Source: Escherichia coli (GTDB taxonomy: Bacteria; Pseudomonadota; Gammaproteobacteria; Enterobacterales; Enterobacteriaceae). Taken from it: a DNA stretch of 64,000 nt. The translations under genes were made by a program, and so were the position numbers. Below, in pieces: positions 5,693 through 45,885 of this stretch. Numbering within the stretch: the first letter of the stretch is position 1; each line of letters starts with the position of its first letter. The notes below the pieces were generated by a model that did not search any database, had not been told where the DNA came from, and worked only from the letters and a program-made list of their open reading frames with translations. Location: assembly GCF_003018255.1 (NCBI RefSeq), contig NZ_CP027440.1. One strand, given 5' to 3'.

Positions 5693-5710
5693 TATCCCCT
5701 ATAGGGGATA
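5693..5710 (+). promoter_or_regulatory. Perfect 18-bp palindrome TATCCCCTATAGGGGATA (TATCC-N8-GGATA, HipB-operator-like)
   Basis: Seen directly; it overlaps the first in-frame ATG of the downstream HTH gene, so the second ATG at 5740 is the likely start. Confidence 0.55.
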
Positions 5711-7294: not shown

Positions 7295-8884
7295 CTATTC
7301 GCGCAGCAACTTCAGCCACGGATTATTCACCGGCACTTTCTCCCCCAACACCTGCTTCGGATCTTCCATCAGAAACCCTTTCAACTGACTACTTTTCTTT
7401 TGTGGAACCCGAACCTCGCAGATCCAGATAAAACTGTCATCATTACAGCGCAGGGCCAGCCCTGACTCCTGAAACATTCGTTGCGCCAGTTTCCAGCCGT
7501 CGCCGCTATCGCCTGTGGTTTCTGCTGCGTATGTTTTAAAGATCCCCGGCGAAATCAAGAAAAGATGGTTTTCCACCACATGTACCTTGCCGTTCCGGGT
7601 ATTCACCGTGGCTGAAGGACTAGTGTGGTTCTTCAGCCACTGCAGGAAATTGTTATTGTCACCAAGCCTCGGATCGTCTGCTATCTCCGGTAACGGTTGA
7701 GTCGGTGCGCTAAGTTCAGGAGCGGGTTCGGCTTCAATTACCGGCGTTACATCACCATCGAAACAGGCCGGACGTTGATCATCCTGCCCCCAGATTACAG
7801 ACGGCGTCAGGCGCAGTAGCGTCAGCGGTTCAACGGGCGACCAGCCTTTATCCGATCGGATAATGCAGCGCCAAATCGCTTTATCTTCGTTGGCAACAAT
7901 AAGCTGATGCGTCAGCAGTTCGTCAAACAGGCGGTTATTGTTTTCCGGCACGCTGGAAACTCCATGCTGGAGCAGCCAGGCGCGAACCCGGTCGGCGGTG
8001 GTTTTGCTGATAAGCCACAGCGCATCCTCCGTCAGCCAGCCATCGGATCCGCATTCGGGATTATTGAGCCGGTACTCGTTCTGTACCAGCGACCGCAAGG
8101 CTGTAAGAAGTTGCTGGGGGAAGGAAGAGGGCTTTTGCGCCAGCGCGGTTTTGATATCGCCGCCGAGGTATCGGGCGACAGAGGCTTTATCGGCCTGCTG
8201 CACCAGTTCAGCCAGTGCGCCAGACCGTTCGTAGTGTCCGGTGAGCTGGTAAATCAGGGACGCAAAAGCCGCCGGGTATCCGGCCAGCCAGTCCAGTAAT
8301 GGCGAGGGTATCAACTGATTAATCAGCATTGCGGTAGCCGCCGGATGCAGATGATAGTCGCGACCGTGGCTCTGGTACTGCCAGCGATAAGGCTGTGCCA
8401 GATAACCCTGCCACGAATGCCAGCGGGTGCCATCACGTTGATGAATCTCCATATCCACGGCGATTTTTCCCGTATCGTGCAGTAATGCCACGCAGACCAC
8501 TGCGACCGTCCATGCGCTGGCCTGCCGGGCCTGTTCTTCCGCGCCCGCTTCCGGTGGTAGCAGATAACCCTGGCGCAGTCGGATGGCGTTGCAGGCAACC
8601 TCCAGCGAATGATCCAGCAACCCGCCGGGAGTGGAATGGTGATGACTTTGTGAGGCGGGAAGCAGTTGTACCAACGCGGCGAAGCGATGAATCGCCGCGA
8701 GGATCCAGCTATCAAACAGGGTATCCGGCAGCGGGGTCAGTTGCCGTAACTGGTGCAAACAGGACTGGCGTAACGGCGTCGCCAGCAATTGTTCTGCGGA
8801 TTGTGGCGCAAACCAGCCCTCCGGCAGCGTAGCGTCTGGCGTAGGTGGCTGGCTCTGGGATGGTCTTTTTAGCCACTTCAGCAT
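7295..8884 (-). CDS. ICE relaxase (MobH/TraI-like, HD-hydrolase motif)
   Basis: 529-aa ORF containing HHHSTPGGLLDHSLEVACNA and LLHDTGK, as in HD-domain relaxases of tRNA-inserting ICEs. Confidence 0.6.
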   Translation of the reverse strand: MLKWLKRPSQSQPPTPDATLPEGWFAPQSAEQLLATPLRQSCLHQLRQLTPLPDTLFDSWILAAIHRFAALVQLLPASQSHHHSTPGGLLDHSLEVACNAIRLRQGYLLPPEAGAEEQARQASAWTVAVVCVALLHDTGKIAVDMEIHQRDGTRWHSWQGYLAQPYRWQYQSHGRDYHLHPAATAMLINQLIPSPLLDWLAGYPAAFASLIYQLTGHYERSGALAELVQQADKASVARYLGGDIKTALAQKPSSFPQQLLTALRSLVQNEYRLNNPECGSDGWLTEDALWLISKTTADRVRAWLLQHGVSSVPENNNRLFDELLTHQLIVANEDKAIWRCIIRSDKGWSPVEPLTLLRLTPSVIWGQDDQRPACFDGDVTPVIEAEPAPELSAPTQPLPEIADDPRLGDNNNFLQWLKNHTSPSATVNTRNGKVHVVENHLFLISPGIFKTYAAETTGDSGDGWKLAQRMFQESGLALRCNDDSFIWICEVRVPQKKSSQLKGFLMEDPKQVLGEKVPVNNPWLKLLRE

Positions 8885-43644: not shown

Positions 43645-44301
43645 TTACTCCGGTACTTTCAGCGTCAGCTGGCGTTTACCGTGGCGGAATACCGCCCGGC
43701 GCTCATCAAACCGCGCCAGCCGCCAGCCGTGCCACTGCTCCCCGATACGCAGCCACACTACCTGATGGAGATAAAGGGCCTCCGGCGGCACGATCACTGC
43801 CAGTCGGATATCGCCGCGCTGTACGGTTCCGGCGAGAAAAAACGGGGCCGTTAACGGCCCCAAAGGGTGGAGGGACACGGGATGACGGTAAGCCACCGTC
43901 TGGGGGAGGGAATGGTCGCTGGTAAAACAGACTTCACGGCGGTTTTCGTCTGCGGTCATTCGCCATGCCGGGCCTGCCAGCAGTTGCAGGGCGGCCTTCA
44001 GGCGCAGCGGGCCGGTGTGGTACTGGTTCAACGGTAACGGGAGGCCATAAAGCTGCGCCCGGCGCGCATCGGAGAGACACAAAGACCAGCCGCTGTCGCG
44101 CAGCAGGTACTGCAATGCTTCACCGACTGTCGGGTGAAAACCGGGCGGAACGGACAGGGTGGTAAGCTGTTCGAGTGGCGGTTGTTGCGGTGACGTGCTG
44201 ACCAGCAGATAGCGGTCGTAGCGGACGACTTCTGGCGTTGCAGGGGAGGCGGCCACGCCGTTGAAAATAAACAGGAGCAGAGCTGTCAGCAGTCGTTTCA
44301 T
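43645..44301 (-). CDS. ICE secreted protein
   Basis: Signal peptide MKRLLTALLLFIFNGVAA. Confidence 0.45.
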   Translation of the reverse strand: MKRLLTALLLFIFNGVAASPATPEVVRYDRYLLVSTSPQQPPLEQLTTLSVPPGFHPTVGEALQYLLRDSGWSLCLSDARRAQLYGLPLPLNQYHTGPLRLKAALQLLAGPAWRMTADENRREVCFTSDHSLPQTVAYRHPVSLHPLGPLTAPFFLAGTVQRGDIRLAVIVPPEALYLHQVVWLRIGEQWHGWRLARFDERRAVFRHGKRQLTLKVPE

Positions 44302-44868: not shown

Positions 44869-45312
44869 TCAGAACTGCGCTACAGGCTCTGCTGGCAGTG
44901 CGGCTGGCGCTGGCTGAGGTTCAGCTTCGCGCTCTGCCCGGTAAACCTCTTCACCGTCAATTTTGATGAGCCCGATGTGCAGCAGATGGGCCTTCAGGCT
45001 GACGCCGGTTTCGCCTTTACGGTCGCCTTTGCTGTAGACAAAGGTGTCGGCGTACAGATCGCCGAGGCGGAACTGGATCAGCACCTTGCGTTTCTGCTCG
45101 CAGGCGTCGATACAGCGGCGCACCAGTTTCTGCGCTTCCTTGCCGCTGACGCGGCAGTCGAACCAGGTGTGCTCCGCGTTGCTGGCTTCGCCCCGTAGTG
45201 CGGCAATGTCGCAACACAGGAACGGTTCGCCTTTTTTCGGGGTCACTTCCCGGATCCGGTTGAGGTAGCCCAGACCGCTGGTGTACAGGTTGAAGTAGTG
45301 GGTATCGTTCAT
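44869..45312 (-). CDS. ICE hypothetical protein
   Basis: 147-aa ORF next to the topB gene. Confidence 0.4.
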   Translation of the reverse strand: MNDTHYFNLYTSGLGYLNRIREVTPKKGEPFLCCDIAALRGEASNAEHTWFDCRVSGKEAQKLVRRCIDACEQKRKVLIQFRLGDLYADTFVYSKGDRKGETGVSLKAHLLHIGLIKIDGEEVYRAEREAEPQPAPAALPAEPVAQF

Positions 45313-45595
45313 GGTGGTATCTCCGTGTTGAAGGTGCGGAGCGCCCCATGCGCGGGAACGCCCCGCTTCGGGTTTGGCTCATTGGCTGCAAGGCCTCTGA
45401 GTTACTGGCAGTACGGGCATTCCGCGCTGTGCGCCTCCGCGTTTCAGGAATGCATGGCGGGTTTTGGGGTTGACCTGTTTAGTTGAATCTTCGGTAGGGA
45501 GAAACGAAAGGTGGAATTGTTTTTACGGCGTGAAAGTTGGAAGTACAGAATGCAAAAAGGCCTTAATAACTAAGGCCCTGAAAGTTAGCTAAATA

Positions 45596-45778
45596 TTATT
45601 TCCGGCGGTCATCGACTTCTTTGGCGACACCTTTAAAGGGAGTGCCGTCCTGCTTCTGGTCGATAAAGCGACCTGTCGTTGTATCGCGTTTGGTGTAGTT
45701 GCCATTCTGCGGATTCTGAACCTGTGTGCGGTCTGTAACAGAGCCCTTGCGATAACCGTCTCCGGTATTCTTGGCCAT
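45596..45778 (-). CDS. Small basic hypothetical protein (60 aa)
   Basis: GGAG ribosome-binding site; 14-bp palindrome GAGGAATATTCCTC at 45797-45810 just upstream; hairpin downstream. Confidence 0.4.
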   Translation of the reverse strand: MAKNTGDGYRKGSVTDRTQVQNPQNGNYTKRDTTTGRFIDQKQDGTPFKGVAKEVDDRRK

Positions 45779-45885
45779 CTTAACACTCCGAAAAATGAGG
45801 AATATTCCTCAGAGAGGATCATCAGACTGCCAATTTGAACGAGCAATCAGGGAAAAGTAAAAGTGTGATGCAGGAAACAGGTTAT

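What the first reader, a model, noticed from the sequence alone, without database searches (positions are those of the whole stretch)
45797..45810. Perfect 14-bp palindrome GAGGAATATTCCTC in the promoter of a 60-aa basic protein gene
An operator-like site lies immediately upstream of the ribosome-binding site of a small, highly basic ORF located between the ICE hypothetical genes and topB; a possible small regulatory or stress protein under tight control.
Basis: seen in the sequence. Interest (0 to 1): 0.25.

Follow-up and report, generated by a model that had tools for sequence, protein, structure and literature searches.

The report
Conserved palindrome leading a small gene
A 16-base palindrome sits just ahead of a real, very widely conserved 60-amino-acid gene carried as a small self-contained cassette in an E. 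coli conjugative element; its two arms are kept in related enterobacterial copies, most likely as a short RNA hairpin at the start of the message, but a repressor binding site is not excluded and the finding is of modest interest.

Summary
The palindrome is 16 bp (TGAGGAATATTCCTCA, 45796-45811). It lies 6 nt upstream of a GGAG ribosome-binding site and 17 nt upstream of the ATG of a 60-aa ORF on the minus strand, between topB and an STY4534-family gene of a PFGI-1/SPI-7-class ICE. Length alone proves nothing: the window holds 7 perfect palindromes of 14 bp or more, against 4.9 expected.

Conservation carries the case. The ORF is under strong purifying selection. It belongs to a family of about 1,270 clusters across bacteria and methanogens, with no Pfam or NCBIfam model. 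It matches the untested PADLOC defence candidate PDC-S38.

Gene, 109-nt upstream region and terminator form a 336-bp cassette found in three unrelated enterobacterial contexts. In all three the arms TGAGG/CCTCA are kept while the 6-nt centre and the flanks diverge. A conserved TTG-17-nAnnAT promoter-like pattern ends 5-6 nt before the repeat.

My best reading (about 0.4) is a stem-loop at the 5' end of the gene's own mRNA. An operator over the transcription start (about 0.25) cannot be excluded, because no compensatory changes were seen. "Tight control" and a regulatory role for the protein are unsupported. Distant homologues lack the repeat.

The parts
45796..45811 (-). 16-bp perfect inverted repeat TGAGGAATATTCCTCA. 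As RNA it is a 6-bp stem with an AUAU loop.
   Evidence: for sequence and position. RNA hairpin energy is -6.7 kcal/mol, z = -3.6 for the 16-mer alone. Arms TGAGG/CCTCA are identical in the ICE, L095 and Cronobacter lineages.
45786..45789 (-). Shine-Dalgarno GGAG, 7 nt before the ATG and 6 nt after the repeat.
   Evidence: Sequence. The leader from the repeat to the ATG differs from L095 at only 2 of 33 positions.
45596..45778 (-). 60-aa protein gene (WP_001561310.1, annotated 'hypothetical protein'), a member of a very large uncharacterised family.
   Evidence: for the ORF and its annotation. Purifying selection. Family breadth. Match to PADLOC PDC-S38, E 3.8e-29, and to phrog_12550, E 6e-21. 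No Pfam or NCBIfam hit.
45557..45579 (-). Intrinsic-terminator-like hairpin of the small gene (10-bp stem followed by TTTTT).
   Evidence: It is conserved in Res13, L095 and the other ICE copies.
45841..45846 (-). -35-like hexamer TTGCTC (inferred, weak).
   Evidence: TTG is kept in all five lineage variants at a fixed 17-bp distance from the -10-like hexamer. It is below the threshold of the promoter scan, which found 0 sites.
45818..45823 (-). -10-like hexamer GATGAT (inferred). It ends 6 nt before the repeat.
   Evidence: The variants GATGAT, AAAAAT, AAATAT and GATTAT all fit nAnnAT at the same position, although the surrounding 29 nt differ from L095 at 17 positions.
45864..45868 (-). Conserved TCACA block 17 nt upstream of the -35-like hexamer. 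Its role is unknown.
   Evidence: Invariant in all eight aligned upstream regions. Coordinates.
45552..45887 (-). The portable cassette: upstream region, repeat, gene and terminator (336 bp).
   Evidence: 81% identical over its whole length to L095 2892-3226, which lies in an unrelated genomic context. In both places it begins right after the stop codon of the upstream gene.
45467..45910 (.). Variable slot of the ICE backbone that holds the cassette.
   Evidence: Homology to the Hsp20-type ICE of E. coli EC9 stops at 45466 and resumes at 45911. Most related E. coli ICEs carry an Hsp20 gene in this slot instead.

Best explanation
The palindrome is the DNA image of a short stem-loop (UGAGGA-AUAU-UCCUCA, about -7 kcal/mol) at or within a base or two of the 5' end of the small gene's own mRNA.

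The gene travels as a 336-bp cassette with this layout: a weak sigma-70-type promoter (TTGCTC, 17 bp, GATGAT), 6 nt, the stem-loop, a U-rich linker, GGAG, 7 nt, ATG, a 60-codon ORF, and a strong terminator.

A base-paired 5' end would shield the transcript from 5'-end-dependent decay by RppH and RNase E. It would also set the structure of a very short 35-nt leader without occluding the ribosome-binding site. Expression would then be largely independent of the genomic context in which the cassette lands.

Shown:
- the repeat and its position;
- the reality and breadth of the gene;
- the cassette boundaries;
- conservation of the arms and of the leader well above the synonymous-site rate.

Inferred:
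- the promoter and therefore the transcription start;
- that the element acts as RNA;
- that its effect is stabilisation.
For: 1. Conservation of the arms. TGAGG/CCTCA is identical in three lineages whose flanks are nearly unalignable, while the 6-nt centre varies freely: AATATT, GATATT, AATTTA, ACTCCC. Ten of ten identical arm bases between the ICE and Cronobacter copies would have p of about 1e-4 at the identity seen at third codon positions.
2. Conservation of the leader. Window against L095 shows 2 differences in the 33 nt from the repeat to the ATG. The comparison values are 23 of 60 at third codon positions and 17 of 29 in the stretch just upstream; binomial p = 2.7e-5. BLAST homology to Cronobacter L118 begins exactly at the first base of the repeat. 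That is what a transcribed-region boundary would look like.
3. Stable hairpin energy. The predicted hairpin has nearly the same stability in five of six variants (-6.4 to -7.3 kcal/mol). In Cronobacter the stem shifts outward by one pair when the inner pair is lost. In L095 an A-to-G change gives a G.U pair.
4. Promoter-like pattern. TTG, 17 bp, nAnnAT is kept in all variants and ends 5-6 nt before the repeat. In Cronobacter the upstream gene is divergent, so a promoter must lie in that 183-bp gap.
5. Portability. The cassette works in unrelated contexts (ICE, hipA/relB island, mrr/Fe-ADH locus) with no linked regulator, which favours a self-contained RNA element.
6. Precedent. Stabilising 5'-terminal stem-loops are an established mechanism in E. 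coli. Emory, Bouvet and Belasco 1992, Bouvet and Belasco 1992, and Arnold et al. 1998 are cited in the review PMC3997798.
Against: - No compensatory (double-sided) change supports the stem. There are 0 such pairs, and the covariation score is no better than shuffles. Sequence-invariant arms are what a protein site would show.
- The hairpin is weak, and in its 36-nt leader context it is not unusual (z = -1.3; 21 of 200 shuffles fold as well).
- The Klebsiella ICE variant breaks a central pair and drops to -3.7 kcal/mol, yet it persists.
- Perfect symmetry of the central ATAT cannot be explained by RNA pairing, because the loop needs at least 3 nt.
- The promoter is inferred only. The consensus scan found none in 45300-46100, and no transcription-start data were available.
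- The feature is not family-wide. Distant homologues show no excess of leader hairpins over control genes (p = 0.74 on energy, p = 0.16 on z-score).
Confidence: 0.4

Rival explanations
1. DNA operator. A dimeric host transcription factor binds the half-sites TGAGG-N6-CCTCA, which are 11 bp (one helical turn) apart centre to centre. The site overlaps the transcription start, so the factor represses the small gene by occlusion or roadblock. The nearest named candidate is the enterobacterial envelope-stress regulator RcsB, whose box TN(G/A)GAN4TC(T/C)NA resembles the inner 14-mer.
For: - Both arms are invariant in sequence across three lineages with a free centre, which is the signature of a two-half-site protein site. 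No compensatory change was seen.
- The ICE copy is a perfect 16-bp palindrome including the central ATAT, which RNA pairing cannot use.
- The repeat is restricted to the Enterobacterales copies of the gene, as expected for a clade-specific host regulator.
- The inner 14-mer GAGGAATATTCCTC meets the RcsB core RGA-N4-TCY. RcsB boxes downstream of a TSS are associated with repression (PMC7913699).
Against: - No regulator gene travels with the cassette.
- No second copy of the site exists in the 64-kb window, and none occurs elsewhere in the 121 loci held at the time.
- For RcsB specifically, the outer T and A of the box are missing. The variants change exactly the RcsB core positions: A5 to G in L095, C11 to A in Klebsiella, T10 to A or C in Cronobacter. 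The outer arms, which are conserved, have N6 spacing rather than N4.
- Matches to the RcsB box with 2 or fewer mismatches are commonplace: 466 in the window against 619 expected.
Confidence: 0.25
2. Weak intrinsic terminator or insulator. On the topB strand the hairpin is followed by TTTTT, so it may stop or dampen read-through from topB or the ICE operon before the small gene, or attenuate the gene's own transcript.
For: - The terminator scan flags 45811-45796 on the minus strand: 6 pairs, 3 G-C, tail TTTTTCGGAG.
- It is the only terminator-like site between the topB stop and the small gene.
- The T-run is kept in all ICE copies and in L095.
- The Hsp20-type ICEs have a strong terminator right after topB.
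Against: - It only just reaches the scan's minimum. Two sites were found in the region against 1.0 +/- 1.2 expected.
- At -6.7 kcal/mol with five U's it is far weaker than the gene's own terminator.
- In Cronobacter the arms are conserved but the tail is TAAAAGG, and the upstream gene there is divergent, so nothing needs terminating.
- It lies downstream of the conserved promoter-like pattern.
Confidence: 0.1
3. Translational control through the leader. Two GGA motifs, one in the 5' arm of the hairpin and one in the Shine-Dalgarno sequence, lie about 18-19 nt apart. They could form a CsrA-type dual binding site, or the hairpin could be the target of another RNA-binding protein, conceivably the small basic protein itself.
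For: - Both GGA motifs and their spacing are kept in the ICE, L095 and Cronobacter leaders.
- The whole leader is more conserved than synonymous sites.
- The CsrA mode of action (GGA sites, one overlapping the SD) comes from my own knowledge and was not tested here.
Against: - The upstream GGA is in the stem, not in a loop where high-affinity CsrA sites usually present it.
- A GGA in a Shine-Dalgarno sequence is uninformative.
- Distant homologues lack the hairpin, which argues against autoregulation by so conserved a protein.
- No direct test was possible.
Confidence: 0.08
4. No function. This would be a chance palindrome that has simply been inherited along with a recently spread cassette.
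For: - Palindromes of this size are expected by chance in 64 kb.
- The ICE copies are nearly identical overall, so their agreement carries little weight.
- The Klebsiella and L111 variants tolerate broken pairs.
- There is no family-wide signal.
Against: - The arms survive between lineages whose synonymous sites are 38-60% diverged and whose flanks are scrambled.
- The motif TGAGG-N6-CCTCA occurs only at this position among the 121 loci held at the time.
Confidence: 0.12

Closest known systems
5'-terminal stabilising stem-loops of E. coli mRNAs (ompA and papA type; Emory, Bouvet and Belasco 1992; Arnold et al. 1998, cited in PMC3997798)
   Same: A short hairpin sits at the inferred extreme 5' end of a short leader. 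It is followed by an A/U-rich single-stranded stretch and the ribosome-binding site. The element is self-contained and portable.
   Different: The 5' end is inferred here, not mapped. The stem is shorter and weaker than ompA hp1. No half-life data exist, and there is no covariation.
RcsB / RcsAB box, TN(G/A)GAN4TC(T/C)NA (PMC7913699, PMC5829831)
   Same: Both are AT-centred pseudo-palindromes restricted to Enterobacterales. The inner 14-mer meets the core RGA-N4-TCY. The position downstream of the TSS parallels the repressive flhDC box.
   Different: The outer T and A are absent. The conserved arms have N6 spacing, not N4. Natural variants hit the core positions. Matches of this quality are abundant by chance.
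Rho-independent terminators
   Same: A hairpin followed by a T-run on the coding strand, downstream of topB.
   Different: The stem is minimal and the T-run is short. The tail is not conserved where the arms are. The site lies after a promoter-like pattern.
PADLOC phage-defence candidate PDC-S38 (for the protein)
   Same: Full-length HMM match, E 3.8e-29. The non-ICE homologues whose neighbours were examined sit beside restriction-modification, Mrr, toxin-antitoxin or resolvase genes.
   Different: PDC entries are candidates nominated by genomic context. To my knowledge this one has not been tested, and no paper in the searched library mentions it.

Membership tests
5'-terminal stabilising mRNA stem-loop | The sequence folds into a stable hairpin as RNA. 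| tested here: met
   -6.7 kcal/mol for the 16-mer (z = -3.6). Five of six natural variants fold at -6.4 to -7.3; the Klebsiella variant folds at -3.7.
5'-terminal stabilising mRNA stem-loop | The hairpin begins within a few nucleotides of the transcript's 5' end. | not testable with these tools
   The start is inferred only, from a conserved TTG-17-nAnnAT pattern ending 5-6 nt before the repeat. The promoter scan found no site.
5'-terminal stabilising mRNA stem-loop | Pairing, rather than sequence, is what is conserved (compensatory changes). | tested here: inconclusive
   There are 0 double-sided changes and one A-U to G-U change, with 81% of cells paired. This is no better than shuffles.
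5'-terminal stabilising mRNA stem-loop | Removing the hairpin shortens mRNA half-life. | not testable with these tools
   Needs a rifampicin chase on wild-type and arm-mutant constructs.
RcsB box | Match to TN(G/A)GAN4TC(T/C)NA. | tested here: not met
   In the inner register the core RGA-N4-TCY is met but T1 and A14 are G and C. In the outer register the half-sites are 6 nt apart, not 4.
RcsB box | Core positions are conserved among orthologous sites. | tested here: not met
   L095, Klebsiella and both Cronobacter variants each change a core base, while the outer arms stay fixed.
Rho-independent terminator | G+C-rich stem followed by a U-tract. | tested here: inconclusive
   Flagged at the scan's minimum: 6 pairs, 3 G-C, 5 T. 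The T-run is replaced by TAAAAGG in Cronobacter.
Sigma-70 promoter upstream of the repeat | Two hexamers close to TTGACA and TATAAT, spaced 16-18 bp. | tested here: inconclusive
   TTGCTC, 17 bp, GATGAT fails the scan's 9-of-12 rule. However, TTG and nAnnAT are kept at fixed spacing in five diverged variants.
PADLOC PDC-S38 | Full-length match to the family HMM. | tested here: met
   E 3.8e-29, residues 1-54 on profile positions 1-56 of 57.
PADLOC PDC-S38 | Protects against phage. | not testable with these tools
   No experimental report was found. Context is suggestive only.
Pfam Hva1_TUDOR (PF11160) | Score above the Pfam gathering threshold. | tested here: not met
   No hit for the window protein. 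Two of 27 homologues reach only E 0.047.
Beta-trefoil subdomain assembling as a trimer | Three copies fold confidently into a trefoil. | tested here: not met
   The family profile hits designed Symfoil trefoils (E 5.7e-7). However, AlphaFold2 on a triple fusion gave pLDDT 34.7 and pTM 0.27. The monomer model finds no significant PDB fold match.

The most novel reading that the evidence does not exclude
The 60-aa protein would be a near-universal single-gene stress or phage-defence effector (bacteria and methanogens; PADLOC PDC-S38) that spreads as a 336-bp plug-in cassette. In enterobacteria the palindrome would be the switch that keeps it silent: a roadblock site for an envelope-stress regulator such as RcsB, or an RNA element opened on infection.
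Probability: 0.08. Interest if true: 0.6.

Novelty: new member of a known kind. Interest (0 to 1): 0.25.

Why it matters
The palindrome by itself is an ordinary cis element, either a leader hairpin or an operator. Neither outcome would surprise a specialist.

The gene behind it adds some value. It is a 55-60-aa protein kept at 60-85% identity from E. coli to Desulfovibrio, cyanobacteria, Firmicutes and methanogens. It has no Pfam or NCBIfam model, no recognisable fold match and no published function. It moves as a tiny promoter-to-terminator cassette into ICE cargo slots and defence or toxin-antitoxin islands.

Knowing how the enterobacterial copy is expressed would give a practical handle for the first functional experiments on that family. 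The useful pieces are the mapped start, the hairpin-or-operator question and the conditions of expression.

Tried and rejected
1. Family-wide palindrome. The 80 nt upstream of the gene in 80 distant homologue loci share no motif. Perfect palindromes with arms of 6 or more occur in 7 of 80, against 8 of 201 control upstream regions, and the difference vanishes once loops are allowed.
2. Family-wide leader hairpin. The best hairpin between -55 and -10 is no more stable than in control genes (Mann-Whitney p = 0.74 on energy, 0.16 on z-score). The striking GACTCATATGAGTC just after a consensus promoter in the spirochaete locus L064 is therefore treated as an anecdote.
3. A regulon inside the ICE. 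TGAGG-N6-CCTCA occurs once in the window. One-mismatch hits number 3 against 1.6 expected.
4. Known RNA families. Nothing credible in Rfam for 45300-46100.
5. Collecting more leader variants. The metagenome scan for the leader returned only one further related copy, identical in the repeat. The exact 16-mer in viral contigs gave 15 unrelated AT-rich chance hits.
6. RcsB box. Rejected as a member (see the membership test).
7. A CRP site using the conserved TCACA. The left half-site is not conserved in any other lineage (my reading of the sequences).
8. Sigma-54, sigma-E and sigma-32 motifs, checked by eye. None is conserved across the variants.
9. The protein as a trefoil 'monofoil'. The triple-fusion AlphaFold2 model has very low confidence.
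10. Foldseek of the monomer model against the PDB. Nothing at E of 0.001 or better. The afdb50 library was unavailable.
11. Literature searches for WP_001561310 and for PDC-S38 returned no paper.

Full report
**What is there**

The 14-mer GAGGAATATTCCTC is at 45797-45810 and is unique in the window even with two mismatches allowed. It is the core of a 16-bp perfect palindrome, TGAGGAATATTCCTCA, at 45796-45811.

All relevant genes are on the minus strand. Reading that strand, the order is:
- topB, with its stop codon at 45886-45888;
- 74 nt;
- the palindrome;
- TTTTTC;
- GGAG (45786-45789);
- 7 nt;
- ATG (45776-45778);
- a 60-codon ORF ending at 45596;
- a strong terminator-like hairpin at 45579-45557.

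The neighbours identify a PFGI-1/SPI-7-class integrative conjugative element. They include an STY4534-family replication protein, PilL2, a TIGR03759 protein, TraD, DUF3158 and a PFL_4669/AcaB-type regulator. The window is 100% identical to the chromosome of E. coli JNE23-011 over the region compared.

**Is it more than chance?**

Not by length. The window contains 7 perfect palindromes of 14 bp or more (4.9 +/- 2.4 expected) and 4 of 16 bp or more (1.1 expected). Three quarters of simulated windows contain at least one 16-bp palindrome. Any claim of function therefore has to rest on comparison with related loci.

**The gene is real and remarkably widespread**

- Evidence of selection on the ORF:
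  - Against the closest non-ICE copy (L095) the ORF differs at 25 nucleotides, 23 of them at third codon positions. That gives 21 synonymous and 3 non-synonymous codon changes.
  - The same pattern holds out to Desulfovibrio and Zoogloea.
- Breadth of the family:
  - The word-indexed search returned 289 relatives at 70-100% identity.
  - A genome scan found 540 encoding stretches. They come from Proteobacteria, Desulfobacterota, Armatimonadota, Chloroflexota, Cyanobacteria, Bacteroidota, Firmicutes, Actinomycetota, a spirochaete and three methanogen lineages.
  - An exhaustive profile search found 1,269 clusters at 50% identity.
- What the databases say:
  - There is no Pfam or NCBIfam model. 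Only a sub-threshold Hva1_TUDOR hit appears, in 2 of 27 members.
  - The protein matches phrog_12550, of unknown function.
  - It matches the PADLOC model PDC-S38 over its full length, E 3.8e-29.
  - PDC entries are context-nominated 'phage defence candidates' (usage seen in PMC11514479). I found no paper on this one.
- Structure:
  - AlphaFold2 with an 83-sequence alignment predicts a three- to four-stranded beta-meander, pLDDT 73.
  - That model has no significant PDB fold match.
  - The family profile has a curious sequence match to designed Symfoil beta-trefoils, E 5.7e-7. A triple-fusion model built to test a trimeric trefoil was very poor, pLDDT 35.
- Charge: 13 K+R against 8 D+E, pI 9.9, so moderately basic.

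**The gene is a portable cassette in a variable ICE slot**

Only 4 of 5,426 complete E. coli genomes carry it. The other related ICEs listed carry an Hsp20 gene on the opposite strand at the same place. Homology between the two ICE types breaks at 45466 and 45911.

The stretch 45552-45887 (336 bp) recurs at 81% identity in L095, next to hipA, relB and lamB. In both places it starts directly after the stop codon of the preceding gene. Cronobacter species carry a more diverged chromosomal copy between a divergent mrr gene and an Fe-ADH gene.

Other homologues lie beside N6/N4 methyltransferases, ResIII helicases, Zeta-toxin-like kinases, resolvases and RadC/DUF2787 islands.

**What happens to the palindrome in relatives**

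- ICE copies from E. coli, Salmonella and Cronobacter sakazakii keep all 16 bp.
- One ICE copy (L111) loses the outermost pair.
- The Klebsiella ICE copies have TGAGGAATATTACTCA, which breaks a central pair.
- L095 has TGAGGGATATTCCTCA, a G.T mismatch in DNA that is a G.U pair in RNA.
- Cronobacter has ATGAGG-AATTTA-CCTCAT and ATGAGG-ACTCCC-CCTCAT.

The arms TGAGG/CCTCA are therefore constant, while the six central bases are free.

Quantitatively, window against L095 shows:
- 2 differences in the 33 nt from the repeat to the ATG;
- 17 of 29 in the stretch just upstream;
- 23 of 60 at third codon positions (binomial p = 2.7e-5 for the leader).

Between the ICE and Cronobacter copies, where third positions are 60% different, the arms are 10 of 10 identical. 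Among the 121 loci held at the time, the motif TGAGG-N6-CCTCA occurs only at this position, upstream of this gene.

Outside this enterobacterial clade the upstream regions are unrelated. Neither palindromes nor leader hairpins are enriched relative to control genes.

**Promoter inference**

All five diverged variants keep the same pattern:
- TTG (within TTGCTC, TTGTTT or TTGCAT);
- a 17-bp spacer of free sequence;
- a hexamer fitting nAnnAT (GATGAT, AAAAAT, AAATAT or GATTAT);
- 5-6 nt;
- the repeat.

A TCACA block sits 17 nt further upstream in all of them.

By the usual geometry the transcript would start at the first or second base of the repeat. This is inference. The hexamers are weak, the consensus scan reports no promoter, and I had no transcription-start data. 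In Cronobacter the upstream gene is divergent, so a promoter must exist in that 183-bp gap.

**Mechanism**

Two readings fit the conserved-arms, free-centre pattern, and I could not separate them.

As RNA:
- The repeat forms a 6-bp hairpin of -6.4 to -7.3 kcal/mol in five of six variants. Cronobacter compensates for a lost inner pair with a new outer pair.
- It would sit at the very 5' end of a 35-nt leader and leave the ribosome-binding site free.
- This is the architecture of the classical 5'-terminal stabilising stem-loops (references in PMC3997798).
- It suits a cassette that must work wherever it lands.

As DNA:
- Two 5-bp half-sites one helical turn apart over the transcription start are a textbook repressor site.
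- The absence of any compensatory change and the perfect central symmetry in the ICE copy point this way.
- The nearest named site is the RcsB box, TN(G/A)GAN4TC(T/C)NA (PMC7913699). The inner 14-mer meets its core.
- Against that, the outer T and A are missing, the natural variants hit exactly the core positions, the conserved arms have the wrong spacing, and matches of this quality are commoner than once per 200 bp.

A third reading is a weak terminator for topB, since a hairpin plus T5 is flagged. It fails in Cronobacter, where the arms persist without a T-run and without an upstream co-directional gene.

I put the RNA stem-loop at about 0.4, an operator at about 0.25, and the remainder on the terminator or insulator, CsrA-type leader control, and no function.

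**Verdict**

There is a conserved cis element, but 'operator', 'tight control' and 'regulatory protein' are not shown.

The element is a new instance of a known kind. The more interesting object is the uncharacterised, almost universal small protein and its 336-bp cassette.

Noticed in passing
window 46294-46296 (minus strand, within topB 45886-47691): topB is interrupted by an in-frame TAG. RefSeq marks it as a pseudogene ('internal stop') in the identical E. coli JNE23-011 genome. The gene is intact in E. coli Res13 and A34 and in Salmonella ICE copies.
   Followed up: partly
window 45467-45910: This is a polymorphic cargo slot of the ICE backbone. Four E. coli genomes carry the small-gene cassette here. 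The other related E. coli ICEs listed carry an Hsp20-family gene on the opposite strand, with a strong bidirectional terminator after topB.
   Followed up: partly
window 45552-45887; L095 2892-3226: The 336-bp promoter-to-terminator cassette recurs at 81% identity in an unrelated context (hipA/relB/lamB neighbourhood). In both places it begins exactly after the stop codon of a co-directional upstream gene, which hints at a specific insertion or recombination mode.
   Followed up: partly
window 5693-5710, 7848-7863, 43844-43861: Three further perfect palindromes of 16-18 bp: TATCCCCTATAGGGGATA, TTATCCGATCGGATAA and GGGGCCGTTAACGGCCCC. With the one studied, that makes 4 with arms of 8 or more, against 1.1 expected.
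   Followed up: no
window 45864-45868 (minus strand): A TCACA block 17 nt upstream of the -35-like hexamer is invariant in the ICE, L095 and Cronobacter upstream regions. A CRP-like left half-site is present only in the ICE copy.
   Followed up: partly
window 45596-45778 and loci L010-L089: The 60-aa protein family is kept at 58-85% identity across about a dozen bacterial phyla and methanogenic archaea (1,269 clusters at 50% identity). It has no Pfam or NCBIfam model. The family profile matches designed Symfoil beta-trefoil repeats (E 5.7e-7), but a trimeric-trefoil model was not supported.
   Followed up: partly
L033 and L067, 80 nt upstream of the gene; L064 likewise: Other lineages have their own upstream palindromes of different sequence. 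These are TTGCTA..TAGCAA in two betaproteobacterial copies, and GACTCATATGAGTC starting 7 nt after a near-consensus promoter in the spirochaete Rectinema. They are not statistically enriched over control genes.
   Followed up: yes
L090-L092, 2342-2524 (L090 coordinates): In one metagenomic lineage the small gene is preceded by a second, unrelated 60-aa ORF and a Zeta-toxin/AAA_33 kinase gene. It is followed by an N6/N4 methyltransferase-ResIII-endonuclease set, which is a defence-island-like arrangement.
   Followed up: no
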